Below, piece after piece: positions 1,679 through 54,296 of a stretch of DNA of 64,000 nt (its first letter is position 1; every line of letters starts with the position of its first letter). This DNA is from Escherichia coli (GTDB lineage Bacteria > Pseudomonadota > Gammaproteobacteria > Enterobacterales > Enterobacteriaceae), in the NCBI RefSeq assembly GCF_011045215.1, contig NZ_CP049201.1; one strand, given 5' to 3'. Under the pieces are notes generated by a model, which had not been told where the DNA came from, ran no database searches, and saw only the letters and a program-made list of their open reading frames with translations. Made by a program: the position numbers and the translations under genes.

Positions 1679-1720
1679 TTTGCCGGATAATATAAAAAGT
1701 TATCCGGCAAATTATTTTTC
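1679..1720 (+). terminator. Putative terminator after yggM
   Basis: Hairpin tgccggataa-N10-ttatccggca followed by aattattttt. Confidence 0.5.
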
Positions 1721-3020
1721 ACATTAGCCCTAGTAGCTGTGGAATGAACAAGGATATTTGCGGAATGTAAGTGATCATCATCAACGCTACTAGCAATGCA
1801 GCATAAAATGGCAGCAATGGTTTGATTAAATGTTGAATCTTCACACCCGAGATAGAACAACCAACAAATAACGCACTACCCACCGGCGGTGTTAACAGCC
1901 CAATACAAAGGTTGGCCACCATCATAATACCGAAATGTACAGGGTCCATTCCCAGCTCTTGTGCAATCGGCAAGAAGATCGGTGTAAAGATTAGTACAGC
2001 CGGTGTCATGTCCATAAAGATGCCGACAATTAATAAGACGATATTAATCAGCAGCAATATGATCAGTGGGTTATCAGAAATCCTCATCAATGCGTCGCTG
2101 ATCATATAAGGAATATCAGCATTGGTCATTGCCCAGGACATGCCCACGGAAAAACCGATCAACAGTAATACAATCGAAGTGGTAACAACCGATTCCAGAA
2201 TCAGTTTGGGTAAATCGCGCCATTTCACTTCCCGGTAAATCAGCACCGAGAGAATAAATGTGTAGACAACGGCAATTGCTGACGCTTCAGTTGCGGTAAA
2301 AATGCCGCCCAGAATGCCGCCCATCACAATGAACACCAGAAGCAAACTTGGTAGGGCATCCAGAAACGCTTTACAGGCCTGAGCAAAGGTTGCTCTATCT
2401 GAAAGTGGGTAACCACGGCGTTTAGCAATAATGGCGCAGACAACCATTACCGCGAGCCCCATTAAGATCCCTGGCAAATATCCGGCCATAAATAGCGATG
2501 CTACGGAAACGCCGCCAGCGGTCAGGGAAAACACAATTAACACGTTTGAGGGCGGTATCAGTAATCCAGTAATACAGGATGAGACGTTTACAGCGGTAGA
2601 AAATGCCGGATCATAACCTTCTTTGGTCTGAATGGGATTAAGTGTGCCACCAACGGCAGCAGCTGCCGCAACGGCTGAACCAGAAATGGAACCAAACATC
2701 ATATTCGCCAGGACGTTCACATGACCAAGCGAACCAGGAACGCGGCCAACCATTACCTGGGCGAGGTTAATCAAACGTATCGCAATACCGCCGCTGTTCA
2801 TCAGCGTTCCGGCAAAGATGAAAAAGGGGATTGCCAACAGGGCAAAGTTATCCAGTCCATTAGCCAGTCGTTGCGAAACAGTGATTGCCGCGATATCCCA
2901 GGGAAACATCAAAAGCAATGAAGCTACAGTGGCAATACCGATTGAGAACGAAATGGGCACACCAATAAAGACCAGCACAAAAAAACAGCCAAACAGTGTA
3001 ATCGCGATATAACTATCCAT
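1719..3020 (-). CDS. TRAP transporter large permease subunit (DctM family)
   Basis: 433-aa highly hydrophobic multi-TM protein; tightly coupled to the DctQ-like and DctP-like genes upstream on the same strand; family assignment from sequence character and operon context, no HMM run. Confidence 0.8.
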   Translation of the reverse strand: MDSYIAITLFGCFFVLVFIGVPISFSIGIATVASLLLMFPWDIAAITVSQRLANGLDNFALLAIPFFIFAGTLMNSGGIAIRLINLAQVMVGRVPGSLGHVNVLANMMFGSISGSAVAAAAAVGGTLNPIQTKEGYDPAFSTAVNVSSCITGLLIPPSNVLIVFSLTAGGVSVASLFMAGYLPGILMGLAVMVVCAIIAKRRGYPLSDRATFAQACKAFLDALPSLLLVFIVMGGILGGIFTATEASAIAVVYTFILSVLIYREVKWRDLPKLILESVVTTSIVLLLIGFSVGMSWAMTNADIPYMISDALMRISDNPLIILLLINIVLLIVGIFMDMTPAVLIFTPIFLPIAQELGMDPVHFGIMMVANLCIGLLTPPVGSALFVGCSISGVKIQHLIKPLLPFYAALLVALMMITYIPQISLFIPQLLGLM

Positions 3021-3532
3021 TAACTGGCCTCCTGCTCAGGTTGTTTCAGTTGTTGAATGCTTTGGTTAATAAAACACAAGGCATAAAACATCATCACCAC
3101 TCCACTTAATGGCAGAATGATATATACGTATCCCATCGGTATTTGCATAGCGGCAGATACCTGAGATGTTGCCAGTGTTTTATCAATTAACTTCAGGCCA
3201 CCAGTCACAATGACCGAACCGGCAAAACCTAAAATGAGAACGTTAATGACTATACTAAGAAGTAATTGCTTGCGTTTATTCAAGGCGAGAGCAAATAAAT
3301 CAATAGAGAGATGTCGCTGCGCGCCGACGGTATATGCAGCACCTAATAATCCTACCCAGATCATCAAAAAGCGTGCCAGCTCATCGGTTAATGTACTTGG
3401 CTGGTTAAGTACGTAGCGGCTAAATACTTGCCAGACTACGCATACAACCAGAGCAAGCATGACGGCGACAGAAAACGCGGCAATGACGCGGTCTACCGCA
3501 AGTTTCAGGCGGTTAAATATCATTGTAAGCAT
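3020..3532 (-). CDS. TRAP transporter small permease subunit (DctQ family)
   Basis: 170-aa 4-TM-like protein between SBP and large permease; start/stop overlap with the DctM-like gene. Confidence 0.75.
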   Translation of the reverse strand: MLTMIFNRLKLAVDRVIAAFSVAVMLALVVCVVWQVFSRYVLNQPSTLTDELARFLMIWVGLLGAAYTVGAQRHLSIDLFALALNKRKQLLLSIVINVLILGFAGSVIVTGGLKLIDKTLATSQVSAAMQIPMGYVYIILPLSGVVMMFYALCFINQSIQQLKQPEQEAS

Positions 3533-3567
3533 CTTGGAAAATCAGGGCCAGAGACTGGCCCGGAATA

Positions 3568-4554
3568 TTATTGAGCAGCGTTGTCGAATTTCTCTAACAA
3601 AGCAGCTTGTTTTGGATCTTTTTTGAAGTCGTCAAACAGAGGTTGCACGGCTTTACGGAATGGCGCTTTATCCACTTTTACAATTTCCCCCCCCATAGCT
3701 TTCGCCTGAGCACGTGTGTCAGCGTCAATTTTTTCCCACAATTTTTGTTGATAAGCTTCGGATTTCTTCGCCGCTGTTTCAAGGATTTGTTGCTGTTCCG
3801 GGGTTAATTTATTCCATGTTTTGGTGGAGATAACCAAAAAGTCAGGAATTGAGGCGTGTTCATCTTCAGAAAAGACTTTGGCAATTTCAATATGTCGAGT
3901 CTGCACCCAGGAAGGCACGTTATTTTCTGCGCCATTTACTACACCTTGCTGCATCGCAGTATAAACTTCGCCAAATGAAATTGGAGTGGGTGAACCACCC
4001 ATCAGTTCAATCATTTTGATGGTGGTCGGACTTGGCTGAACACGAATTTTCAGTCCTTTAAGATCTTCTGGCTTTGTAATCGGTTTTTTCGCATAGAAAC
4101 TGCGTGTACCCGCTACATAAGCTGATAAAGCAAAAAAGCCTTTGTCTTTTGTTGAGTCCATAATTTCTTTACCAACTTCACCAAAAACAACTTTGTTGAA
4201 GTGCGCCTGATCTTTAAATAAGAACGGCAAATTATAGATAGCATAAATATTATCAAAAGACTCCAGATCACTGGCGGAACCTTTGGTCATATCCAGTGCG
4301 CCATTTTGCAACAATTCCATAGTTTCTCGCGCATTACCCATCTGGCTGCTGGGATAAATACGGATCACCATATTACCTTTTGACAGCTGTTTTACCTCTT
4401 TCGCCAGCTCTTCAAAACTCTGATGTACAACATGACTTCTTTCCAGGTTGTGTGCTAACTTTAACGTCACTTTTTCTGCGGCGTTTACGCCAGTGCTAAC
4501 CAGAGCCAGCAAGGATGCGCAGACTAATGAGCGGGTAAATGACCTCATCTTCAT
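3568..4554 (-). CDS. TRAP transporter substrate-binding protein (DctP family), secreted
   Basis: 328-aa protein with signal peptide (MKMRSFTRSLVCASLLALVSTGVNAAE); first gene of P-Q-M operon. Confidence 0.8.
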   Translation of the reverse strand: MKMRSFTRSLVCASLLALVSTGVNAAEKVTLKLAHNLERSHVVHQSFEELAKEVKQLSKGNMVIRIYPSSQMGNARETMELLQNGALDMTKGSASDLESFDNIYAIYNLPFLFKDQAHFNKVVFGEVGKEIMDSTKDKGFFALSAYVAGTRSFYAKKPITKPEDLKGLKIRVQPSPTTIKMIELMGGSPTPISFGEVYTAMQQGVVNGAENNVPSWVQTRHIEIAKVFSEDEHASIPDFLVISTKTWNKLTPEQQQILETAAKKSEAYQQKLWEKIDADTRAQAKAMGGEIVKVDKAPFRKAVQPLFDDFKKDPKQAALLEKFDNAAQ

Positions 4555-29596: not shown

Positions 29597-30306
29597 AAAT
29601 TGAATTAACGGTGAATGGGCTGAACGTGCAAGCGCAGTACCATGAGGAAGAGATAAAACGCGTGCATAAACCGTTGCTGCGCATGTTGGCGGCCTTACAG
29701 ACGGTAAATCCGCAGCGGCGAACCGTGGTTTTTCTTTGCGCTCCGCCGGGAACGGGAAAATCGACCCTGACTACCTTCTGGGAATATCTCGCGCAACAAG
29801 ACCCCGAACTGCCCGCTATCCAGACGCTCCCGATGGATGGTTTTCACCATTACAATAGCTGGCTGGATGCGCATCAGCTACGCCCGTACAAAGGCGCGCC
29901 GCAGACATTTGATGTGGCAAAACTGGCAGAAAAATTGCGCCAGGCAGTGCAGGGCGACTGTACGTGGCCGCAGTACGATCGACAAAAACATGATCCGGTA
30001 GAAGATGCGTTGCATGTTACCGCACCAATAATCATCGTCGAAGGAAACTGGCTATTGCTGGATGACGAGAAGTGGCGCCAGCTTGCGCAATTTTGTGATT
30101 TCTCGATCTTTATTAACGCGCCCGCAGCGGCGTTGCGGGAGCGTCTGGTGGGGCGCAAGCTGGCGGGAGGGTTATCGCTGGCAGACGCAGAAGCTTTTTA
30201 TGACCGTACCGACGGGCCGAATGTTCGCCGGGTGCTGGAAGAGAGTCTGCCTGCAAATTTGACCTTAATGATGACCGCTACGGGTGAATATCGTCTGGTG
30301 GATTAA
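29593..30306 (+). CDS. yggC: P-loop nucleoside/pantothenate kinase-like protein YggC
   Basis: 237 aa; Walker A APPGTGKST. Confidence 0.8.
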   Translation: MKIELTVNGLNVQAQYHEEEIKRVHKPLLRMLAALQTVNPQRRTVVFLCAPPGTGKSTLTTFWEYLAQQDPELPAIQTLPMDGFHHYNSWLDAHQLRPYKGAPQTFDVAKLAEKLRQAVQGDCTWPQYDRQKHDPVEDALHVTAPIIIVEGNWLLLDDEKWRQLAQFCDFSIFINAPAAALRERLVGRKLAGGLSLADAEAFYDRTDGPNVRRVLEESLPANLTLMMTATGEYRLVD

Positions 30307-30955
30307 TGTTCCTGATTAGACCATCTTCCAGTCGCACCACACGAGAGAAATGACGCCGGGTAAATGCGGCGTCATGACTGATTGCTACGACGCTCGTGCC
30401 TCGCTGGCGGCACTTCTCCAGCCAGCTTTCAAACACGCTCAACCAATTTTCGTCAAAATCCCGACTCGGCTCGTCCAGCAGCAATAGTGGCGGAGAGAGT
30501 GCTTCCAGGCAGGCGACGGCGACCATCCGTCGCTGCGCACTATGCAGATCCAACGGGTGCGCGCTGGCAGTGTCTGCTAACTGACAACATTGCAGGGCAG
30601 CATGGGTACGTTGAGTGATTTCATCCGCCGGGCATTTTTGCAGTTTCAAACCAAATGCGATCTCGTCAGCGACGGTGCTGTGAAAAAGTTGGTTTTCCGC
30701 TTCCTGAAACAGTACGCCAATCTTTGCCGCGCGCTGGCGGTTTTTCAGGTTTTTCATCGCCTGTTGTTGCCGCATAACCGTACCGGCTGTGGGCGTAAGA
30801 AGACCTGCCATTACTCGTAACAGCGTCGATTTCCCTGCGCCATTGTCACCGGTCAGCGCCAACCATTCACCTTGTTTGAGTTGCAGAGAAATGTCGCAAA
30901 GACAATCCGTTGCCGCGCCAGGCCAGCGATAAGATATCTGATTTAACGTTAACAT
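30278..30955 (-). CDS. ABC-type ATPase (EcfA-like) with degenerate signature motif
   Basis: Walker A GDNGAGKST, Walker B LLLLDEP, but signature region reads LHSAQRRM instead of LSGGQ; start chosen at MLTLNQISYRW; 3' end overlaps yggC 3' end by 29 bp. Confidence 0.7.
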   Translation of the reverse strand: MLTLNQISYRWPGAATDCLCDISLQLKQGEWLALTGDNGAGKSTLLRVMAGLLTPTAGTVMRQQQAMKNLKNRQRAAKIGVLFQEAENQLFHSTVADEIAFGLKLQKCPADEITQRTHAALQCCQLADTASAHPLDLHSAQRRMVAVACLEALSPPLLLLDEPSRDFDENWLSVFESWLEKCRQRGTSVVAISHDAAFTRRHFSRVVRLEDGLIRNINPPDDIHP

Positions 30956-31632
30956 AGTGGCTGGAGCGCTCCGTTTTGCAATTGCCACGCTTGCTGGCAG
31001 TAGTTCAGGAAAGGTGTGCGATGACGTTCAAAAAGAATAATCAGCGAACCACGTTCAAACGCCCAGTGTTGTAATCGCTGCAACAGCATTTCGCTGGCCT
31101 GCGGCGTCAGGCGGCTAAAGGCTTCATCAAGAATTAATAGCTTTGGCTGCATCGCGATGGCGCAGGCGATGACCACGCGCTGTGTCTCTCCACCGGAGAG
31201 TGTTGCTGGGTGACGATGGCGCAACGGCTGGCACTCGGTCAGAGTCAGGGCGGCATCAATCCGCGCCATAATCTCTGCTTCAGCAAGACACAGATTTTCT
31301 GGCCCAAAGGCAACTTCTTCTTCCACGCTAAAGGTACAGCCGGAGAGCTGCAAATAGGGCGATTGCTGGACGAGCTGGATGGTGGCGGATTGTTCATTAA
31401 GCGGGAGATGCCCAATGGGCGTACCGAGGAGCGTCCCCGTGCCTGTTATCTCTCCTGGCAGAAAGTCCGGATACCAGCCCGCCATCAGCTGTGCCAGCGT
31501 ACTTTTGCCACTGCCGTTGTCACCAAAGATGGCGACCATCCCCGGTTTGACATAGTGAAAGTTATAACAGAACGGAGGATGCGTTGAGTGTGTCGGGCAA
31601 TAACGGAACTGTTCTAACGTAACCATATCCAC
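30949..31632 (-). CDS. ABC-type ATPase (EcfA-like), canonical motifs
   Basis: Walker A GDNGSGKST, signature LSGGETQRV, Walker B LLILDEA; start uncertain by a few codons. Confidence 0.75.
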   Translation of the reverse strand: MDMVTLEQFRYCPTHSTHPPFCYNFHYVKPGMVAIFGDNGSGKSTLAQLMAGWYPDFLPGEITGTGTLLGTPIGHLPLNEQSATIQLVQQSPYLQLSGCTFSVEEEVAFGPENLCLAEAEIMARIDAALTLTECQPLRHRHPATLSGGETQRVVIACAIAMQPKLLILDEAFSRLTPQASEMLLQRLQHWAFERGSLIILFERHRTPFLNYCQQAWQLQNGALQPLC

Positions 31633-32321
31633 GCTCCGAATTCTGTCAGCATCAGCAAGATCATGGTGTAACGCGCTACGCGTTGTAGGGTGCTATCGGC
31701 TGGTGCCCACAACGTTGTTCGTCGGTTGTGGATCCGAAATGCCCGCATATCCAGCGCCGCACCGCGGACAGCAAGATCGTTTAGCGCATTGTGTGTTAGC
31801 GGAATAATTAACGCGGGCATCGCACGTAAACGCTGATACCAGCCCTCATCCAGCGGCACGCCGCGGGCACGCTGCGCTTCATGAATAATCGCTAATTGCC
31901 GTTTTAACTGCTCAACGACCAATAACGGACCGGCAAACAGATAAGCGACGCCTGGCGGCAGGCGAGAAGCAAACAGAGCGCGGATAAAACATTGCACGGG
32001 GACGTACTGCATCCACAACTGTGAGGTTGAAACAATCGCCAGAATCCGCAACCAGAGCGTAATAGCATGCGTCCAACGCTCCGGCGAACGCGGCGTGCCG
32101 CTTAGCCATTCTGTTAGCCAGCCACCGTGTACCAGCCACAGCCCGGCTCCCAGCGAGAACATCAGCCAGACGACATATTTTGCCCGCCGCCGCGTGGCCT
32201 TTAGCGCAATAAGGCAGAAAAAGGTCGCCGCGCTATAGACTGGCAGTATTGTCTGTGTGGGCAGGATAAGCGTGGTGCAGGCCGCCAATGCCCATAGTGT
32301 TAATGAGGTAAATGGATGCAT
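31614..32321 (-). CDS. ECF transporter T component (EcfT/CbiQ-like)
   Basis: 235-aa multi-TM protein with two Ala-Arg-Gly-type coupling motifs (EAQRARGVP and DLAVRGAAL) in the C-terminal half; directly upstream of two ABC ATPase genes. Confidence 0.65.
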   Translation of the reverse strand: MHPFTSLTLWALAACTTLILPTQTILPVYSAATFFCLIALKATRRRAKYVVWLMFSLGAGLWLVHGGWLTEWLSGTPRSPERWTHAITLWLRILAIVSTSQLWMQYVPVQCFIRALFASRLPPGVAYLFAGPLLVVEQLKRQLAIIHEAQRARGVPLDEGWYQRLRAMPALIIPLTHNALNDLAVRGAALDMRAFRIHNRRTTLWAPADSTLQRVARYTMILLMLTEFGAWIWLR

Positions 32322-32900
32322 TTAGCGCACGGCAGCCATTGCCGGAAAATGGCGCGTGGTGCGAATCGGCAGCTGGCGCAGTAAAAGCCAGACAATCACC
32401 GCTGTAAGAGTTTTATCGACCAGGTTCGCGCCTATCACTGTAATTGCCACCGACTCCACCAGGTTTTGCCCCATCGAGTGCATCCAGGCAACGAACAAAT
32501 CGGCTCCGCTACCGGTGACACCGCCGAACAGCGCAGTACGCAGCGGTACAGCGACGACCGTTACCGCAAGCGTAATAATCACGCCGCTGACAACGACTTT
32601 TGGCAGGGTGCGGAACCAACCCGCTCGCGCCAGCCAACCAGCGACCAGGCCGATGACCATCGCCACGGGCGCAAATGCGGCGGCGATCGGGTCGGTCAGC
32701 AATCCCCAGAGTAAATTGGTCAGTAAGCCGGTCAGCATCCCGATCACCGGACCAAGCAGTACCGCGCTAATAAGTGTGCCGATGGAGTCGAGAAATATAG
32801 GTAATTTGACCATGCTGGCCAGTTGCCCGCCGATCATATTGATGGCGATAGATATAACGATCAACACCAGTGCCTGACTGGAAAAGTGGCTACGCGCCAT
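32322..32900 (-). CDS. Small integral membrane protein, probable ECF substrate-specific (S) component
   Basis: ~192 aa from MARSHFSSQALVLIVISIAIN (ORF-track upstream extension would overlap the PPC gene); 5-6 predicted TM segments; position directly upstream of T component. Confidence 0.5.
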   Translation of the reverse strand: MARSHFSSQALVLIVISIAINMIGGQLASMVKLPIFLDSIGTLISAVLLGPVIGMLTGLLTNLLWGLLTDPIAAAFAPVAMVIGLVAGWLARAGWFRTLPKVVVSGVIITLAVTVVAVPLRTALFGGVTGSGADLFVAWMHSMGQNLVESVAITVIGANLVDKTLTAVIVWLLLRQLPIRTTRHFPAMAAVR

Positions 32901-32922
32901 AAGAAAACCTCTCTGAAAGTAG

Positions 32923-33354
32923 TTATTTAACGGGGGAAATATGCAACTCGTCGTAACCAGAAAGCGCGCAAGGTTGGCGGCTAAACGCCAGTTCCTCAAG
33001 GCTACCGATCACCAGTTCAAGCGTGGTCCGCACGGTACAGCCGGGCATCATATGACCGCCAAGCATCGTGCCGTGTGGATCGGAAACGCAGAGATGAAGA
33101 TGCTCACCACTCTGTTCCAACGTGCCGTTTAGTGAGATCACTTCGAATGTACCGTTCAGGAGCGTGGTGCCTTCTTGCCCGGCATAGCGCAAGGCGATGT
33201 CAGTCAGGCTACCGGTACAGCCTGCAATCCAGGCGGCATGAAGTTGCTGCTGCTGTGCAAAAGCGTGTAGCTGGGAAAAAACTTCCTGCCCGGGGAGGAG
33301 GCGCAGTGCGTAAAAGCGTGCGGAGGAAGAATATGGGTAGGGCAATGTCATCAT
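32923..33354 (-). CDS. PPC/DUF296-domain protein
   Basis: 143 aa; pattern G.FEV.SLNGTL....HLH......G...GGH...GC.V....E.V resembles the PPC (plants-and-prokaryotes conserved, DUF296) fold; first gene of the operon. Confidence 0.6.
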   Translation of the reverse strand: MMTLPYPYSSSARFYALRLLPGQEVFSQLHAFAQQQQLHAAWIAGCTGSLTDIALRYAGQEGTTLLNGTFEVISLNGTLEQSGEHLHLCVSDPHGTMLGGHMMPGCTVRTTLELVIGSLEELAFSRQPCALSGYDELHISPVK

Positions 33355-37317: not shown

Positions 37318-37416
37318 CCTGATGCGCTACGCTTATCAGGCCTACACGTATCCTGCAATATATTGAATTAGCAGGTTTTTGTAGGCCGGATAAGGCGTTC
37401 ACGCCGCATCCGGCAT
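37318..37416. repeat. REP elements (two palindromic units)
   Basis: gcctgatgcgctacgcttatcaggcctac and gtaggccggataaggcgttcacgccgcatccggca. Confidence 0.6.
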
Positions 37417-46771: not shown

Positions 46772-47665
46772 TTAATCCTGACGAAGGACTTTGTGACCAT
46801 AATCGAGTAACGCATCAGTGACTTTACGCATCATGCGGCTTTCAGGTGCAAAGCGGTGCCAGTAAAGCATTCGGCGTTGAAATAGCCCAGGCGTTAAGTC
46901 AATCAGTTCACCGCTGGCCAGTTCTTTCTCGATTTGCAGGTGCGGGATCATACAGCAGGTGGTGCCCTGGCGAGCAAGTTGCACGAATGCTTCTGAAGAA
47001 TTAACGATATGGCAGGGTACGCTGCCAGGAGGCAGATCGAAGTTTTGCTGCAAAAAGGCCTGGTGCATATCGTCAAGATGGTCAAACGCGACCACTGGCG
47101 CTTTCAATAATGCCGAACGCGTTACGCCGTTAGGGAAATATTTTTCGGCAAAGGGTTTTGAGCTGACGAACAGATAGTCGAGCGCACCAAGTTTATCGAC
47201 AAGACAACTCGGCAGCGCCTGATGTTGAATACTCACCGCGCCGACCACTTCGCCGCGGCGCAGACGTTCCTGAGTGCGGGTTTCATCTTCTACCTGCAAG
47301 TTGAGGCGGATAGGCGAATCAGCCAACACAGGAGCCAGTGCAGGAAGCAACCACGTCGCCAGACTGTCGGCGTTGACCGCCAGTGAAAGCAGCAGCGGAG
47401 TCGAACCGGTTTGTTCATCGCCCAGCCACTCTTCTTCCAGCAACTCCACCTGGCGCAGCAGTGCCAGCAGTTTTTGCCCTTGTTCCGTCGGGCGCGGCGG
47501 TACGGTACGCACCAACAGCGGCTGCCCGAACATATTTTCCAGTTGCTTAATGCGCTGTGAGACGGCTGATTGTGTAATGCACAGCTTTTGTGCCGCGCGC
47601 TCAAATCCTCGTTCACGTATCACCGCATCCAGTGCCTGTAATGTTCTGTAGTCCGGGCGTTTCAT
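46772..47665 (-). CDS. argP: LysR-family regulator ArgP (IciA)
   Basis: Start at [43 protein letters not shown] (297 aa). Confidence 0.9.
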
Positions 47666-47806
47666 TGCTGTTGTCTGCTCCTGGTAAATGCTTTTTCCTG
47701 CACTATGACACAATTTTGTGTCAGGTTGCATATACCGAAGCCGTCGGCGGGTAACATTTGTATTCGTGGTTAAACGCGCAGCTTAAAAGATCAGGGATTT
47801 GCGCTA

Positions 47807-48037
47807 ATGCATTTCGCTCAGCGAGTTCGCGCCCTGGTTGTGTTGAATGGCGTGGCGTTATTGCCTCAATTTGCCTGTAAACAGGGGCTTGCGAACGGTG
47901 AACTGGTGCGCCTGTTTGCACCGTGGAGCGGCATACCCAGATTGTTGCATGCCTTATTTGCGGGGCGAAAGGGGATGCCTGCCATTGCGCGATATTTTAT
48001 GGATGAGTTAACCACGCGGCTTGCCAACGGGGTCTGA
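47807..48037 (+). pseudogene. yqfE: LysR-family regulator C-terminal remnant (yqfE-like)
   Basis: 76-aa ORF resembling only the C-terminal effector domain of a LysR regulator (..GELVRLFAPWSG..ARYFMDEL); no HTH-bearing N-terminus. Confidence 0.45.
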
Positions 48038-48092
48038 ATCGCTTTTTTTGTATATAATGCGTGTGAAATTTCATACCACAGGCGAAACGATC

Positions 48093-48752
48093 ATGACGCA
48101 GGATGAATTGAAAAAAGCAGTAGGATGGGCGGCACTTCAGTATGTTCAGCCCGGCACCATTGTTGGTGTAGGTACAGGTTCCACCGCCGCACACTTTATT
48201 GACGCGCTCGGTACAATGAAAGGCCAGATTGAAGGGGCCGTTTCCAGTTCAGATGCTTCCACTGAAAAACTGAAAAGCCTCGGCATTCACGTTTTTGATC
48301 TCAACGAAGTCGACAGCCTTGGCATCTACGTTGATGGCGCAGATGAAATCAACGGCCACATGCAAATGATCAAAGGCGGCGGCGCGGCGCTGACCCGTGA
48401 AAAAATCATTGCTTCGGTTGCAGAAAAATTTATCTGTATTGCAGACGCTTCCAAGCAGGTTGATATTCTGGGTAAATTCCCGCTGCCAGTAGAAGTTATC
48501 CCGATGGCACGTAGTGCAGTGGCGCGCCAGCTGGTGAAACTGGGCGGTCGTCCGGAATACCGTCAGGGCGTGGTGACCGATAATGGCAACGTGATCCTCG
48601 ACGTCCACGGCATGGAAATCCTTGACCCGATAGCGATGGAAAACGCCATAAATGCGATTCCTGGCGTGGTGACTGTTGGCTTGTTTGCTAACCGTGGCGC
48701 GGACGTTGCGCTGATTGGCACACCTGACGGTGTCAAAACCATTGTGAAATGA
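48093..48752 (+). CDS. rpiA: Ribose-5-phosphate isomerase A
   Basis: Start at [39 protein letters not shown] (219 aa). Confidence 0.95.
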
Positions 48753-49007
48753 TCTGACGGGGGAACCTCCCCCGTTAAAAAAATTCTCTTCATTAAATTT
48801 GGTGACATGTGTCACGTTTTTATCTGGCTATTGTCGATTGCTCTAAATAAATCCTCTAAACCAGCATATTCATCCAAGAGTTACCTTTGCGTGATATTTC
48901 CTCAACATCGCGACGCAAACGTTCATATTGCCGCAATATTATTTTTTGATATGTTGAAAGGCGGACGCAAATCCGCACACAACATTTCAAAAGACAGGAT
49001 TGGGTAA

Positions 49008-50240
49008 ATGGCAAAGGTATCGCTGGAGAAAGACAAGATTAAGTTTCTGCTGGTAGAAGGCGTGCACCAAAAGGCGCTGGAAAGCCTTCGTGCAGCTGGT
49101 TACACCAACATCGAATTTCACAAAGGCGCGCTGGATGATGAACAATTAAAAGAATCCATCCGCGATGCCCACTTCATCGGCCTGCGATCCCGTACCCATC
49201 TGACTGAAGACGTGATCAACGCCGCAGAAAAGCTGGTCGCTATTGGCTGTTTCTGTATAGGAACAAACCAGGTTGATCTGGATGCGGCGGCAAAGCGCGG
49301 GATCCCGGTATTTAACGCACCGTTCTCAAATACGCGCTCTGTTGCGGAGCTGGTGATTGGCGAACTGCTGCTGCTATTGCGCGGCGTGCCGGAAGCCAAT
49401 GCTAAAGCGCACCGTGGCGTGTGGAACAAACTGGCGGCGGGTTCTTTTGAAGCGCGCGGCAAAAAGCTGGGTATCATCGGCTACGGTCATATTGGTACGC
49501 AATTGGGCATTCTGGCTGAATCGCTGGGAATGTATGTTTACTTTTATGATATTGAAAATAAACTGCCGCTGGGCAACGCCACTCAGGTACAGCATCTTTC
49601 TGACCTGCTGAATATGAGCGATGTGGTGAGTCTGCATGTACCAGAGAATCCGTCCACCAAAAATATGATGGGCGCGAAAGAAATTTCACTAATGAAGCCC
49701 GGCTCGCTGCTGATTAATGCTTCGCGCGGTACTGTGGTGGATATTCCGGCGCTGTGTGATGCGCTGGCGAGCAAACATCTGGCGGGGGCGGCAATCGACG
49801 TATTCCCGACGGAACCGGCGACCAATAGCGATCCATTTACCTCTCCGCTGTGTGAATTCGACAACGTCCTTCTGACGCCACACATTGGCGGTTCGACTCA
49901 GGAAGCGCAGGAGAATATTGGCCTGGAAGTTGCGGGTAAATTGATCAAGTATTCTGACAATGGCTCAACGCTCTCTGCGGTGAACTTCCCGGAAGTCTCG
50001 CTGCCACTGCACGGTGGGCGTCGTCTGATGCACATCCACGAAAACCGTCCGGGCGTGCTAACTGCGCTGAACAAAATCTTCGCCGAGCAGGGCGTCAACA
50101 TCGCCGCGCAATATCTACAAACTTCCGCCCAGATGGGTTATGTGGTTATTGATATTGAAGCCGACGAAGACGTTGCCGAAAAAGCGCTGCAGGCAATGAA
50201 AGCTATTCCGGGTACCATTCGCGCCCGTCTGCTGTACTAA
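49008..50240 (+). CDS. serA: D-3-phosphoglycerate dehydrogenase
   Basis: 410 aa, MAKVSLEKDKIKFLLVEGVHQKALESLRAAGYTNIEFHKGALDDEQ. Confidence 0.95.
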   Translation: MAKVSLEKDKIKFLLVEGVHQKALESLRAAGYTNIEFHKGALDDEQLKESIRDAHFIGLRSRTHLTEDVINAAEKLVAIGCFCIGTNQVDLDAAAKRGIPVFNAPFSNTRSVAELVIGELLLLLRGVPEANAKAHRGVWNKLAAGSFEARGKKLGIIGYGHIGTQLGILAESLGMYVYFYDIENKLPLGNATQVQHLSDLLNMSDVVSLHVPENPSTKNMMGAKEISLMKPGSLLINASRGTVVDIPALCDALASKHLAGAAIDVFPTEPATNSDPFTSPLCEFDNVLLTPHIGGSTQEAQENIGLEVAGKLIKYSDNGSTLSAVNFPEVSLPLHGGRRLMHIHENRPGVLTALNKIFAEQGVNIAAQYLQTSAQMGYVVIDIEADEDVAEKALQAMKAIPGTIRARLLY

Positions 50241-50260
50241 TTCCCCTTCTCTGACAATCA

Positions 50261-50290
50261 ACGGGCAAGTTACTGGCTTGCCCGTTTTTT
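50261..50290 (+). terminator. serA rho-independent terminator
   Basis: cgggcaagt-tact-ggcttgcccg followed by ttttttt. Confidence 0.6.
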
Positions 50291-50424
50291 TATCCGTTTT
50301 CCCCACATTTGCAGTGCCGTGCATATGTCTTTGCGAGTCTGCTCGAATAAAGAAATTAAAGTCAGATCAATGCGTTGTCTTTGTATGTGAAGGATTTACG
50401 ATGGCGAGGCAGCATGGGGCTGTA

Positions 50425-50575
50425 ACGGTAAAGCCCTCACCGAAGCGAGGGCTTGAAGGAGAAGGGTTATGATGCGACTTGCCATCATACTGATTGTACT
50501 GTTACTCATAAGTTTCCCAGCTTATTAACAGTCAGTCACAGGGGAGGAGTAATCCTCCCTTACCCTTACTCACTA
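50425..50575 (-). ncRNA. Sib antisense RNA (antitoxin), copy 1, boundaries approximate
   Basis: Inferred from Ibs/Sib architecture (antisense sRNA spanning the toxin ORF); conserved hairpins at 50433..50452 and 50605..50631; ends not determined. Confidence 0.4.
50469..50528 (+). CDS. Ibs-family type I toxin peptide (19 aa)
   Basis: atg atg cga ctt gcc ... MMRLAIILIVLLLISFPAY; aggaga RBS upstream; too short for the ORF track. Confidence 0.7.
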   Translation: MMRLAIILIVLLLISFPAY

Positions 50576-50817
50576 AATTAGGTTAAAGAATCAACGATGT
50601 CAATCAGGGCGATGCGGGATGCATCGCCCTGAACCAATCTTGCTGAAGGCCATCTCATCGCCCGCGTTCATTGCGGTAATAAATCCCGTTTTCCCACAAT
50701 AAATTCATACCTTGCATCAGGTTTTACGAGCGCACTCGAAGAAAAGATTTAAAGTAAGATCAATGCGTTGTGGTTATTAAAAGAGAGTTTACGATGGCGG
50801 GGCAGCATGGGGCTGTA

Positions 50818-50968
50818 ACGGTAAAGCCCTCACCGAAGCGAGGGCTTGAAGGAGAAGGGTTATGATGCGACTTGCCATCATACTGATTGTACTGTTACTG
50901 ATAAGTTTCGGAGCTTATTAACAGTCAGTCACAGGGGAGGAGCAATCCTCCCTTACCCTTACTCACTA
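50818..50968 (-). ncRNA. Sib antisense RNA (antitoxin), copy 2, boundaries approximate
   Basis: By analogy with copy 1. Confidence 0.4.
50862..50921 (+). CDS. Ibs-family type I toxin peptide (19 aa), copy 2
   Basis: MMRLAIILIVLLLISFGAY; same RBS context; differs from copy 1 at one residue (P17G). Confidence 0.7.
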   Translation: MMRLAIILIVLLLISFGAY

Positions 50969-51021
50969 AATTAGGTTAAAGAATCAACGATGTCAATCAG
51001 GGCGATGCTGGTGTGTCGCCC

Positions 51022-51570
51022 TCACCACTCCCAGATTTTCGACGGTGTAACCACCGCAGGCAGTGGGATATCCCACTCTTCAACGGGGAGTTTTTCCACC
51101 AACTGACAATCATGCGCATAACCCACCGGTTGCATTTTATAGTGCTGCCAGTTTTGTAAGGTCCGATCATAAAAACCACCGCCCATTCCCAGGCGCTGGC
51201 CGTACTCATCAAAGGCGACCAGCGGTGTGATCAACACGTCTAATCGGGAAAGGGGTAGCACGTCACGCACATCCAATTTTGGCTCATGGATCTTCAACCT
51301 GTTCATCACCAGTTCGCTTTGCGGATGGTAATTCAGGAACAGCAAATTACCGGCACTAAAGGGATGCAAAACTGGAAGATATACGCGCTTACCGGCGCGC
51401 CAGAGTTGTTCTATGAGTGGCTGGGTGTCGAGTTCGCCATCAAAAGAGAGGAATACAGCGACCGTATGTGCCATCACCACCGGGGGATAAGTCATCATCC
51501 GGGTAGCGGCTTGTTGACCCATTTCCTGCTGTTGTTCCGGCGTTAACGTACGACGACGTTGCCGAATCAT
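51022..51570 (-). CDS. ygfA: 5-formyltetrahydrofolate cyclo-ligase
   Basis: Start chosen at MIRQRRRTLTPEQQQEMGQQ (182 aa), downstream of the 6S RNA 3' end; the ORF-track N-terminal extension runs through ssrS. Confidence 0.8.
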   Translation of the reverse strand: MIRQRRRTLTPEQQQEMGQQAATRMMTYPPVVMAHTVAVFLSFDGELDTQPLIEQLWRAGKRVYLPVLHPFSAGNLLFLNYHPQSELVMNRLKIHEPKLDVRDVLPLSRLDVLITPLVAFDEYGQRLGMGGGFYDRTLQNWQHYKMQPVGYAHDCQLVEKLPVEEWDIPLPAVVTPSKIWEW

Positions 51571-51644
51571 TTTGCGGATTTCTTGTCGGGATAATGTCAG
51601 TGGGAGTTCTGGTAGTTGCGTCATGGCTGGTGCCAGATAAGAAG

Positions 51645-51828
51645 GGAATCTCCGAGATGCCGCCGCAGGCTGTAACCCTTGAACCCTTGGTTCAAGGTGA
51701 ATGTGTCGTCGCAGTTTTAAGGCTTCTCGGACGGACCGAGCATGCTCACCAACCGCGGAGCGCCACATTCTTGTGGTATGAAATATCGGCTCAGGGGACT
51801 GGCCCGCTTGCGAACATCTCAGAGAAAT
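51645..51828 (-). ncRNA. ssrS: 6S RNA
   Basis: Reverse complement reads ATTTCTCTGAGATGTTCGCAAGCGGGCCAGTCCCCTGAGCCGATATTTCATACCACAAGAATGTGGCGCTCCGCGG...GGAGATTCCCT, matching 6S RNA as I recall it; immediately upstream of ygfA. Confidence 0.85.
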
Positions 51829-51869
51829 TTTGTCTTCACGGTTACTCTACCACAGTAAACCGAAAAGTG

Positions 51870-52265
<396 letters not shown>

Positions 52266-52366
52266 CTATAGCTACCCTGATGAGAAGAGACAAGCCCTTT
52301 TCTGGTCCACCAGGGCCCAAAGTGGTAGCATATCATGAATATTCCTCCCTTTGACGACGAATGCTT

Positions 52367-52945
52367 ATGTCTATACAGAACGAAATGCCTGGTTACAACG
52401 AAATGAACCAGTATCTGAACCAACAAGGGACGGGTCTGACCCCTGCTGAGATGCATGGTTTAATCAGTGGGATGATATGTGGCGGTAACGATGACAGCTC
52501 ATGGCTGCCGCTACTTCACGACCTGACGAACGAAGGCATGGCTTTCGGTCATGAGCTGGCACAGGCACTGCGTAAAATGCACTCTGCCACCAGCGATGCC
52601 CTGCAAGATGACGGCTTCCTTTTTCAGCTTTATCTGCCTGATGGCGATGATGTCAGCGTTTTCGATCGGGCTGATGCACTGGCAGGTTGGGTCAATCACT
52701 TCCTGCTTGGTCTTGGCGTTACGCAACCGAAGCTGGACAAAGTGACCGGAGAAACCGGTGAAGCCATCGACGATCTGCGTAACATCGCGCAGCTGGGCTA
52801 CGACGAAGACGAAGATCAGGAAGAGCTTGAAATGTCGCTTGAAGAGATCATCGAATACGTTCGTGTTGCCGCGCTGTTATGCCACGACACCTTTACTCAT
52901 CCGCAACCGACCGCGCCAGAAGTACAAAAACCGACTCTACACTAA
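52367..52945 (+). CDS. ygfB: UPF0149 family protein YgfB
   Basis: Start at [21 protein letters not shown] (192 aa). Confidence 0.85.
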
Positions 52946-52970
52946 AAACAAAAAACGTAAGGAGAGTGTT

Positions 52971-54296
52971 ATGAGTGAGATATCCCGGCAAGAGTTTCAG
53001 CGTCGCCGTCAGGCCCTGGTGGAGCAAATGCAACCCGGCAGCGCCGCGCTGATTTTTGCTGCACCAGAAGTAACACGTAGCGCCGACAGCGAATACCCCT
53101 ATCGTCAGAACAGTGACTTCTGGTACTTCACCGGCTTTAACGAACCGGAAGCGGTGCTGGTGCTGATTAAAAGCGATGACACTCATAACCACAGCGTTCT
53201 GTTTAACCGCGTTCGCGACCTGACGGCGGAGATCTGGTTTGGCCGTCGTTTAGGTCAGGATGCCGCGCCAGAGAAACTGGGCGTTGACCGCGCACTGGCA
53301 TTCAGCGAAATTAATCAGCAACTTTATCAACTACTTAATGGTCTGGATGTGGTTTACCACGCCCAGGGCGAATATGCATATGCTGATGAAATCGTGAACA
53401 GCGCGCTTGAGAAACTGCGTAAAGGTTCGCGGCAAAATCTCACCGCGCCGGCAACGATGATCGACTGGCGTCCCATTGTTCATGAAATGCGCCTGTTCAA
53501 ATCGCCGGAAGAGATTGCCGTACTTCGCCGCGCGGGTGAAATCACCGCCCTGGCGCATACTCGGGCGATGGAAAAATGCCGTCCGGGAATGTTCGAGTAC
53601 CACCTGGAAGGCGAAATTCACCACGAATTTAACCGCCACGGCGCGCGCAATCCTTCCTATAACACCATTGTCGGCAGCGGTGAAAACGGCTGCATTCTGC
53701 ATTACACCGAAAACGAGTGTGAACTGCGCGACGGCGATCTGGTGTTGATTGACGCGGGTTGCGAATACAAAGGTTACGCTGGCGATATTACCCGCACCTT
53801 CCCGGTCAACGGCAAATTCACTCAGGCTCAGCGTGAAATCTACGACATTGTGCTGGAGTCTCTCGAAACCAGCCTGCGCCTGTATCGTCCGGGAACTTCC
53901 ATTCAGGAAGTCACCGGTGAAGTGGTGCGCATCATGGTTAGCGGCCTGGTAAAACTCGGCATCCTGAAAGGTGATGTTGATGAACTGATCGCTCAGAACG
54001 CCCATCGTCCTTTCTTTATGCATGGCCTTAGCCACTGGTTAGGACTGGATGTCCATGACGTGGGTGTTTATGGTCAGGATCGCTCGCGCATTCTGGAACC
54101 GGGCATGGTACTGACCGTAGAGCCAGGGCTGTATATTGCGCCGGATGCAGAAGTGCCAGAACAATATCGCGGTATCGGCATTCGTATTGAAGACGACATT
54201 GTGATTACCGAAACCGGTAACGAAAACCTCACCGCCAGCGTGGTGAAAAAGCCGGAAGAAATCGAAGCGTTGATGGCAGCTGCGAGAAAGCAATGA
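52971..54296 (+). CDS. pepP: Xaa-Pro aminopeptidase (aminopeptidase P II)
   Basis: Start at MSEISRQEFQRRRQALVEQMQPGSAALIFAAPE (441 aa); M24 family. Confidence 0.93.
   Translation: MSEISRQEFQRRRQALVEQMQPGSAALIFAAPEVTRSADSEYPYRQNSDFWYFTGFNEPEAVLVLIKSDDTHNHSVLFNRVRDLTAEIWFGRRLGQDAAPEKLGVDRALAFSEINQQLYQLLNGLDVVYHAQGEYAYADEIVNSALEKLRKGSRQNLTAPATMIDWRPIVHEMRLFKSPEEIAVLRRAGEITALAHTRAMEKCRPGMFEYHLEGEIHHEFNRHGARNPSYNTIVGSGENGCILHYTENECELRDGDLVLIDAGCEYKGYAGDITRTFPVNGKFTQAQREIYDIVLESLETSLRLYRPGTSIQEVTGEVVRIMVSGLVKLGILKGDVDELIAQNAHRPFFMHGLSHWLGLDVHDVGVYGQDRSRILEPGMVLTVEPGLYIAPDAEVPEQYRGIGIRIEDDIVITETGNENLTASVVKKPEEIEALMAAARKQ

What the first reader, a model, noticed from the sequence alone, without database searches (positions are those of the whole stretch)
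50337..51012. Two tandem Ibs/Sib type I toxin-antitoxin repeats downstream of serA
Two ~300-bp direct repeats each contain a 19-codon ORF for a very hydrophobic peptide (MMRLAIILIVLLLISFPAY and MMRLAIILIVLLLISFGAY) with a good RBS, matching the Ibs toxin family whose expression is repressed by the antisense Sib sRNA. The ORF track misses them because they are below the length cutoff. As I recall, K-12 carries a single copy (sibC/ibsC) in the serA-ygfA interval, so this locus appears duplicated here; the two toxins differ at one residue, suggesting divergence after duplication.
Basis: partly seen in the sequence, partly recalled or inferred. Interest (0 to 1): 0.5.

Follow-up and report, generated by a model that had tools for sequence, protein, structure and literature searches.

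The report
Two tandem SibC/IbsC toxin-antitoxin modules
The spacer between serA and fau in this E. coli window holds two tandem copies of the well-known Sib/Ibs small-RNA/toxic-peptide pair, an arrangement already annotated and present in about a third of complete E. coli genomes, so it is real but ordinary.

Summary
A 300-nt direct repeat (50317-50616 and 50710-51009, period 393) holds two 19-codon ORFs on the + strand: MMRLAIILIVLLLISFPAY and MMRLAIILIVLLLISFGAY. Opposite each ORF is a full-length Rfam SIB_RNA match (137 and 133 bits; gathering score 56). By alignment to K-12 sibC, the antisense RNAs are 50427-50567(-) and 50820-50960(-). Each is 141 nt, 96-97% identical to SibC and 66-81% to SibA/B/D/E, with the same predicted fold as SibC.

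K-12 does carry one copy here. The two-copy state is nevertheless common: 1,870 of 5,426 complete E. coli genomes (34.5%) have it, including O157:H7 EDL933. RefSeq annotates both peptides in the closest genome, and Fozo et al. 2010 already counted 6 Ibs in EDL933.

What is unusual is only the haplotype. The non-core spacer is 73-87% identical to the common two-copy allele, the specificity patch sits in the reverse copy order, and the exact copy-2 allele occurs in 2 complete genomes.

The copies differ at 4 Sib positions. Three lie in target-recognition domain 1, and domain 2 is identical, so I infer mutual cross-repression.

Verdict: already known, low interest.

The parts
49008..50240 (+). 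serA (phosphoglycerate dehydrogenase), the upstream flanking gene
   Evidence: ORF. Annotated as serA in the 100%-matching RefSeq record.
50260..50286 (+). serA intrinsic terminator-like hairpin followed by a T run
   Evidence: Terminator scan.
50317..50616 (.). Repeat unit 1
   Evidence: the repeat finder family D1.
50375..50402 (+). Putative ibs-1 promoter: -35 TTGTCT, 16-nt spacer, -10 TACGAT
   Evidence: Inferred. The TACGAT and GATCAATGCGTTGT blocks are conserved in all aligned units, including K-12. The position fits a 159-nt ibsC mRNA (Han 2010). It falls below the threshold of the consensus scan.
50409..50567 (+). Inferred ibs-1 mRNA (about 159 nt)
   Evidence: By analogy with the 159-nt ibsC transcript used by Han et al. 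2010. The ends were not measured here.
50469..50528 (+). ibs-1 ORF, MMRLAIILIVLLLISFPAY (RefSeq WP_001387035.1)
   Evidence: Translation, RefSeq annotation. This core allele is at least 99% identical in 1,514 genomes.
50427..50567 (-). Sib-1 antisense sRNA, 141 nt, SibC type
   Evidence: Rfam RF00113, 137.4 bits. Ends placed by exact match to the K-12 sibC ends. 95.7% identical to SibC. Folds like SibC, z = -4.1.
50575..50603 (-). Sib-1 promoter: -35 TTGACA (50598-50603), 17-nt spacer, -10 TAATTT (50575-50580). The transcription start is at 50567.
   Evidence: Read. Identical to the K-12 sibC upstream region except for one spacer base. Function is inferred.
50607..50629 (.). 9-bp hairpin (GGGCGATGC / GCATCGCCC) duplicated with the unit
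   Evidence: Read. It is paralogous to the hairpin at 51000-51021.
50617..50709 (.). Inter-copy spacer, the most diverged part of the locus
   Evidence: 74% identical to the common two-copy haplotype. A junction query (window 50600-50800) spanning this spacer matches only 2 genomes at 99% or more.
50710..51009 (.). Repeat unit 2
   Evidence: the repeat finder.
50768..50795 (+). Putative ibs-2 promoter: -35 TTGTGG, 16-nt spacer, -10 TACGAT
   Evidence: Inferred by register with unit 1 and with K-12.
50862..50921 (+). ibs-2 ORF, MMRLAIILIVLLLISFGAY (RefSeq WP_106121087.1)
   Evidence: Translation, annotation. The exact 111-nt core allele is found in only 2 complete genomes.
50820..50960 (-). Sib-2 antisense sRNA, 141 nt, SibC type
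   Evidence: Rfam RF00113, 133.3 bits. Ends. 96.5% identical to SibC. Fold z = -5.4.
50968..50996 (-). Sib-2 promoter: -35 TTGACA (50991-50996), -10 TAATTT (50968-50973). The transcription start is at 50960.
   Evidence: Read, by register with unit 1.
51000..51021 (.). Hairpin directly after the fau stop codon
   Evidence: Read.
51022..51624 (-). fau (ygfA, 5-formyltetrahydrofolate cyclo-ligase), the downstream flanking gene
   Evidence: Annotation of the matching record.

Best explanation
The serA-fau spacer holds two tandem SibC/IbsC-type type I toxin-antitoxin modules.

How each module works. The + strand gives a short ibs mRNA of about 159 nt that encodes a 19-residue hydrophobic peptide. 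At high level this peptide depolarises the inner membrane. The - strand gives a 141-nt Sib RNA, expressed from a TTGACA/TAATTT promoter, that is fully complementary to the ibs mRNA.

Sib contacts its target first through two elements. One is its P5 loop (TRD1, +46 to +68), which pairs inside the 3' part of the ORF. The other is the single-stranded J1/7 segment (TRD2, +99 to +115), which pairs over the ribosome-binding region. Pairing then spreads, translation is blocked and the mRNA is degraded.

What was shown here: the sequence, the family membership, the fold and the synteny. What is taken from K-12 work: the mechanism (Han et al. 2010; Fozo et al. 2008).

My own inference on cross-talk. 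The two copies differ only at Sib +18, +50, +51 and +61. TRD2 and an 80-nt block (+62 to +141) are identical. I therefore expect each Sib to repress both ibs mRNAs, meaning the pair is partly redundant rather than insulated.

History of the locus. It is an old duplication. The functional core is kept similar by selection and by patchy gene conversion, while the spacers have drifted.
For: Rfam SIB_RNA gives full-length matches (model 1-147) at 137.4 and 133.3 bits against a gathering score of 56.

Both Sib RNAs have 5' and 3' ends identical to K-12 sibC. They are 95.7% and 96.5% identical to SibC and 66-81% identical to SibA/B/D/E.

Both fold into the same P1/P2/P5/P6/terminator architecture as K-12 SibC, at -54.8 kcal/mol, z = -4.1 and -5.4. 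The variable trinucleotide lies in the 8-nt P5 loop.

The peptides are 17/19 identical to IbsC. RefSeq names both as Ibs family toxins. The site is the same as sibC/ibsC in K-12.

Core identity between the copies is 96%, against 68% for the unit flank.

The TRD positions, and the finding that either TRD alone suffices for repression, come from Han et al. 2010, PMC2943612. The differences between the copies map to +18, +50, +51 and +61, leaving an 80-nt perfect block that covers TRD2.

Mosaic combinations of the polymorphic sites occur in the window, B7A, GPEC709, PapM-36-2 and EDL933.
Against: No expression or toxicity data exist for these alleles. The V5A, S17P and S17G substitutions relative to IbsC were not tested, and a review notes that V5 matters for IbsC toxicity.

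The consensus scan did not flag the Sib or ibs promoters, because their -10 boxes are weak matches.

The cross-repression claim rests on engineered SibC/SibD chimeras in K-12, not on these natural alleles.
Confidence: 0.93

Rival explanations
1. The two modules are insulated from each other, like the five K-12 pairs. On this reading the 3-nt difference in the TRD1 loop is kept by selection so that each Sib controls only its own ibs, and the two toxins can be released independently.
For: Three of the four differences between the copies fall in TRD1. Han et al. place the discriminating positions in exactly this trinucleotide, G49-C50-U51. The rest of the core is more alike here (4 differences) than in the common haplotype (8 differences), yet the TRD1 difference persists.
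Against: TRD2 is identical in the two copies, and Han et al. found that either TRD alone is sufficient for repression; loss of repression needed both to be changed. In strain GPEC709 both copies carry the same TRD1 patch, so a distinct TRD1 is not obligatory.
Confidence: 0.25
2. One of the two copies is a decaying, non-functional relic of the duplication, either not transcribed or encoding a non-toxic peptide.
For: The copy-2 allele is rare: its exact core occurs in 2 of 5,426 genomes. The two ibs -35 boxes differ (TTGTCT vs TTGTGG).
Against: In both copies the ORF, Shine-Dalgarno sequence, Sib promoter hexamers, Sib ends, terminator and predicted fold are all intact. The core is 96% conserved between copies while the neighbouring spacer is 68%. 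Both Rfam scores are more than twice the gathering score.
Confidence: 0.07
3. The repeat is an assembly artefact or a chance similarity, and there is really one copy.
For: None beyond the general risk that tandem repeats carry in assemblies.
Against: The copies differ at 33 of 300 positions. The same 781-bp spacer is present at 100% identity in a complete genome, and the same two-copy structure occurs in 1,870 complete genomes.
Confidence: 0.01

Closest known systems
sibC/ibsC of E. coli K-12 (b4446/b4665), type I toxin-antitoxin, Rfam RF00113
   Same: Same intergenic site (serA-fau). Same 141-nt Sib with identical ends. 135-136 of 141 nt are identical. Same predicted fold, identical TRD2, and a peptide 17/19 identical.
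   Different: There are two copies instead of one. The TRD1 loop trinucleotide is UGG or UCC instead of GCU, so codon 17 is Pro or Gly instead of Ser. Codon 5 is Ala instead of Val.
The common two-copy serA-fau haplotype (for example E. coli B7A and O157:H7 EDL933)
   Same: Same two-module architecture, same 392-393-nt period and same flanking genes. The peptide WP_001387035.1 is shared.
   Different: In that haplotype the Gly17 type is next to serA and the Pro17 type is next to fau. In the window the order is reversed, and both copies have Ala5. The window copies differ at 4 Sib positions and have identical TRD2, against 8 positions including +113 in TRD2 for B7A. Non-core spacer identity is only 73-87%.
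Tandem sibA-sibB and sibD-sibE loci of K-12
   Same: Tandem pairs of Sib/Ibs modules within one intergenic region.
   Different: They lie at other chromosomal sites and are 66-81% identical to the window Sib RNAs. The paralogs there differ in both TRDs and are reported not to cross-react, except ibsA.

Membership tests
Sib/Ibs type I toxin-antitoxin (Rfam RF00113 SIB_RNA; Ibs toxin family) | Antisense RNA matches the SIB_RNA covariance model above its gathering score | tested here: met
   137.4 and 133.3 bits against a gathering score of 56, full model length, minus strand.
Sib/Ibs type I toxin-antitoxin (Rfam RF00113 SIB_RNA; Ibs toxin family) | An 18-19-codon ORF for a hydrophobic peptide on the opposite strand, lying wholly inside the Sib-complementary region and carrying the Ibs consensus (MM[KR]..II......SF.AY) | tested here: met
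   ORFs at 50469-50528 and 50862-50921 lie inside 50427-50567 and 50820-50960. They align with K-12 IbsA-E. An NCBIfam scan was not possible because the peptides are under 20 aa, but RefSeq/PGAP names both as Ibs family toxins.
Sib/Ibs type I toxin-antitoxin (Rfam RF00113 SIB_RNA; Ibs toxin family) | Sib secondary structure with an exposed P5 loop (TRD1), single-stranded J1/7 (TRD2) and a terminator hairpin | tested here: met
   The minimum-free-energy folds of both copies share the P1, P2, P5, P6 and terminator helices of the K-12 SibC fold (they differ only in the short helix between P2 and P5). +107 to +113 is unpaired. Domain positions are from Han 2010.
Sib/Ibs type I toxin-antitoxin (Rfam RF00113 SIB_RNA; Ibs toxin family) | Own promoter for each strand | tested here: inconclusive
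   The Sib -35/-10 (TTGACA/TAATTT) and the ibs -10 (TACGAT) are conserved with K-12. They fall below the threshold of the generic consensus scan, and no transcript data are available.
Sib/Ibs type I toxin-antitoxin (Rfam RF00113 SIB_RNA; Ibs toxin family) | Peptide is toxic on overexpression and is neutralised by the cognate Sib RNA | not testable with these tools
   This needs induction and co-transformation experiments.
SibC/IbsC subfamily (orthology with the K-12 sibC locus) | Located between serA and fau, and closest to SibC among the five K-12 paralogs | tested here: met
   Synteny. 95.7% and 96.5% identical to SibC, against at most 81% to the other four.

The most novel reading that the evidence does not exclude
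The TRD1 loop / codon-17 patch may behave as a movable specificity cassette. Patchy gene conversion would shuffle it between the tandem copies, and possibly between alleles. Selection would usually keep the two copies different at this patch even when the rest of the core is homogenised. On this reading the window is a rare natural haplotype with the patches in reversed order and TRD2 identical, which would make it a ready-made test of how much mismatch is needed to insulate two cis-antisense toxin-antitoxin pairs.
Probability: 0.3. Interest if true: 0.3.

Novelty: already known. Interest (0 to 1): 0.1.

Why it matters
It matters little beyond correct annotation. Both modules belong to a textbook type I toxin-antitoxin family, sit at its known locus and are already named in RefSeq. 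The extra copy relative to K-12 is a common E. coli polymorphism.

There are two small points of value. First, ORF callers with length cut-offs miss these toxins, and in the four RefSeq/PGAP-annotated records opened here the Sib RNAs themselves are not annotated, only the peptides. Second, this rare haplotype, together with the mosaic alleles seen in other strains, offers natural variants for testing the TRD1/TRD2 discrimination rules that were derived from engineered K-12 constructs.

Tried and rejected
(1) My first translations used coordinates one base off and gave nonsense. They were corrected.

(2) The generic promoter/terminator scan found neither the Sib nor the ibs promoters, and did not find the Sib terminators, which lack a long T run. 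I therefore placed promoters and RNA ends by homology with K-12 sibC.

(3) Fozo et al. 2008 (PMID 18710431 / PMC2597788) and the 2008 MMBR review (PMC2593563) are not held. Statements about that work are taken from Han 2010, Fozo 2010 and a 2021 review.

(4) An NCBIfam/PHROG scan of the peptides was not possible, because they are 19 aa and the tool needs 20.

(5) I looked for the source of the diverged spacer in other species. None is closer to the window's inter-copy spacer than other E. coli. Import from another species is therefore neither supported nor excluded.

(6) I considered whether the window is simply strain PapM-32-1. It is not identical: there are 10 SNPs in 5.8 kb around the locus and structural differences in the first 25 kb.

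Full report
**What is there**

Window 50241-51021 is the 781-bp spacer between serA (49008-50240, +) and fau/ygfA (51022-51624, -). ssrS (6S RNA), zapA and ygfB lie beyond fau.

The spacer contains one direct-repeat family: 50317-50616 and 50710-51009, 300 nt, 89% identical, start-to-start spacing 393. The identity is uneven. The first 75 nt of the unit are 68% identical (51/75) and the remaining 225 nt are 96% identical (217/225).

Each unit has a 19-codon ORF on the + strand. 50469-50528 encodes MMRLAIILIVLLLISFPAY and 50862-50921 encodes MMRLAIILIVLLLISFGAY. Each is preceded by AAGGAG 7 nt upstream of the ATG. My first translations were one base out of register and are void.

**Family assignment**

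A scan of the whole window against Rfam 15 gives two full-length matches to SIB_RNA (RF00113) on the minus strand. They are at 50453-50603 (137.4 bits, E = 3e-28) and 50846-50996 (133.3 bits, E = 3e-27), against a gathering score of 56. The Rfam model begins with the Sib promoter (TTGACA and following bases) and stops before the terminator.

I therefore placed the RNA ends by exact match to the annotated ends of K-12 sibC (NC_000913 b4446, 141 nt). This gives Sib-1 = 50427-50567(-) and Sib-2 = 50820-50960(-), both 141 nt.

- They are 95.7% and 96.5% identical to SibC, and 66-81% identical to SibA, B, D and E.
- Both fold at -54.8 kcal/mol (z = -4.1 and -5.4) into the same main helices as K-12 SibC: closing stem P1, hairpin P2, a long hairpin with an 8-nt loop, hairpin P6, an unpaired +107 to +113 and the terminator hairpin (only the short helix between P2 and P5 differs).
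- The peptides are 17/19 identical to IbsC (MMRLVIILIVLLLISFSAY) and share the family pattern with IbsA-E.

**Promoters**

Upstream of each Sib start lie TTGACA, a 17-nt spacer and TAATTT, then 7 nt to the +1. This is identical to K-12 apart from one spacer base.

Upstream of each ibs lies a conserved TACGAT, with a TTGTNN box 16 nt before it. A start 7 nt downstream of TACGAT would give the 159-nt mRNA used for ibsC by Han et al..

These promoter assignments are inferences from conservation. The generic scan did not reach its threshold on them.

**How common it is**

K-12 has a single copy here, in a 388-bp spacer.

Against 5,426 complete E. coli genomes, two independent counts agree. The 781-bp spacer gives a second, off-register place in 1,870 genomes (7,294 places in 5,424 genomes). 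A 201-nt query across the inter-copy junction is covered at 80% or more in exactly 1,870 genomes. So 34.5% of complete genomes have two copies. These include B7A, O157:H7 EDL933, and O103, O111 and O145 strains.

RefSeq annotates both ORFs in the 100%-matching genome, PapM-32-1, as 'type I toxin-antitoxin system Ibs family toxin' (WP_001387035.1 and WP_106121087.1). Fozo et al. 2010 (PMC2887945) list 6 Ibs in EDL933 and 7 each in Shigella boydii CDC 3083-94 and E. fergusonii ATCC 35469. They also discuss tandem duplication of ibs-sib loci. K-12 has five Ibs/Sib pairs (Han et al. 2010). The finding is therefore a true positive for something already known.

**What is particular to this window**

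- The common two-copy haplotype has V5/G17 next to serA and A5/P17 next to fau. The window has A5/P17 first and A5/G17 second.
- At the nucleotide level, Sib-1 equals the fau-proximal copy of B7A plus G18A. Sib-2 equals that same copy with the three TRD1 positions (+50, +51, +61) of the serA-proximal copy.
- The exact copy-2 core is found in only 2 complete genomes (PapM-32-1 and TB06052), with one more at 99.1%. The copy-1 core is at 99% or more in 1,514 genomes.
- Outside the cores, the window's spacer is only 73-87% identical to the common two-copy haplotype. A 6-kb stretch spanning the locus (window 47000-53000) is 95-99% identical in nearly all other complete genomes and up to about 98% in the closest unrelated ones.
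- The serA-proximal half is 96.4% identical to a single-copy allele, that of strain RM13752.

Across the window, B7A, GPEC709, PapM-36-2 and EDL933, the variable Sib sites (+17/18, +30, +50/51, +61, +86, +113) occur in different combinations in copy 1 and copy 2. In GPEC709, for example, both copies carry the same TRD1 patch. I read this mosaic as repeated short-tract gene conversion between the tandem copies, on top of an old duplication. This is an inference, not a phylogenetic test.

**Mechanism**

The mechanism is taken from K-12 work, not shown here. Ibs peptides are toxic at high level and depolarise the membrane. Sib RNAs repress the cognate ibs mRNA.

Han et al. 2010 mapped two independent target-recognition domains in SibC. 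TRD1 (+46 to +68, the P5 loop) pairs inside the ORF. TRD2 (+99 to +115, J1/7) pairs over the translation-initiation region. Either one suffices for repression. Specificity switched to ibsD when G49-C50-U51 and C107-C113 were replaced, and repression of ibsC was lost only when both domains were changed.

In the window the two copies differ at +18, +50, +51 and +61. Three of the four differences lie in TRD1. TRD2 is identical and sits in an uninterrupted 80-nt block of identity (+62 to +141). I therefore infer that each Sib can repress both ibs mRNAs through TRD2. That would make the two modules less insulated than the K-12 paralogs, and less insulated than the common haplotype, whose copies also differ at +113.

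The rival view is that the TRD1 difference alone insulates them. I give that about 0.25.

**Verdict**

The feature is ordinary and already annotated. Only the allele combination is rare.

Noticed in passing
window 1719-4554 (-): Three adjacent ORFs of 433, 170 and 328 aa look like the large permease, small permease and periplasmic binding protein of a TRAP-type transporter (assigned by eye from the translations). They lie between yggM and hemW. This ~3.2-kb segment is absent at that junction in the closest complete genome, PapM-32-1.
   Followed up: partly
window 37338-37380 (-): Rfam ES036 (CssrF) sRNA match just above threshold: 40.0 bits against a gathering score of 37.6, E = 1.5e-4. It sits in the fbaA-mscS spacer.
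   Followed up: no
window 51645-51828 (-): 6S RNA (ssrS), Rfam 139.8 bits, immediately upstream of fau as in K-12.
   Followed up: yes
window about 30277-33353 (-): A cluster of two ABC ATPases, an ECF transporter T component, an S component and a PPC-domain DNA-binding protein lies just upstream of epd (annotation of PapM-32-1). As I recall it is not part of the K-12 map here. I did not check this.
   Followed up: no
window 50607-50629 and 51000-51021: A 9-bp GC-rich hairpin lies next to each Sib -35 box. The second follows the fau stop codon directly, so the duplicated unit seems to have carried a copy of the fau-distal hairpin with it.
   Followed up: partly
window 47892-47953: Six of the ten differences between the window and PapM-32-1 in a 5.8-kb comparison cluster in 62 nt. 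The cluster lies inside a 76-aa ORF annotated as a hypothetical protein, between argP and rpiA.
   Followed up: no
L015 (GPEC709), L016 (PapM-36-2), L017 (EDL933), serA-fau spacers: The variable Sib positions occur in different combinations in the two copies of different strains. In GPEC709 both copies have the same TRD1 patch. EDL933 copy 2 encodes MMRLVIILIVLLLISLPAY. This suggests frequent short-tract conversion between the tandem copies.
   Followed up: partly
RefSeq records NZ_CP049204.1, NZ_CP064680.1, NZ_CP035812.1 and NZ_CP116176.1 at this locus: The PGAP annotations list the Ibs peptides but not the Sib RNAs, although Rfam scores them at more than twice the gathering score. Only the curated K-12 MG1655 record carries the sib ncRNA features.
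   Followed up: partly
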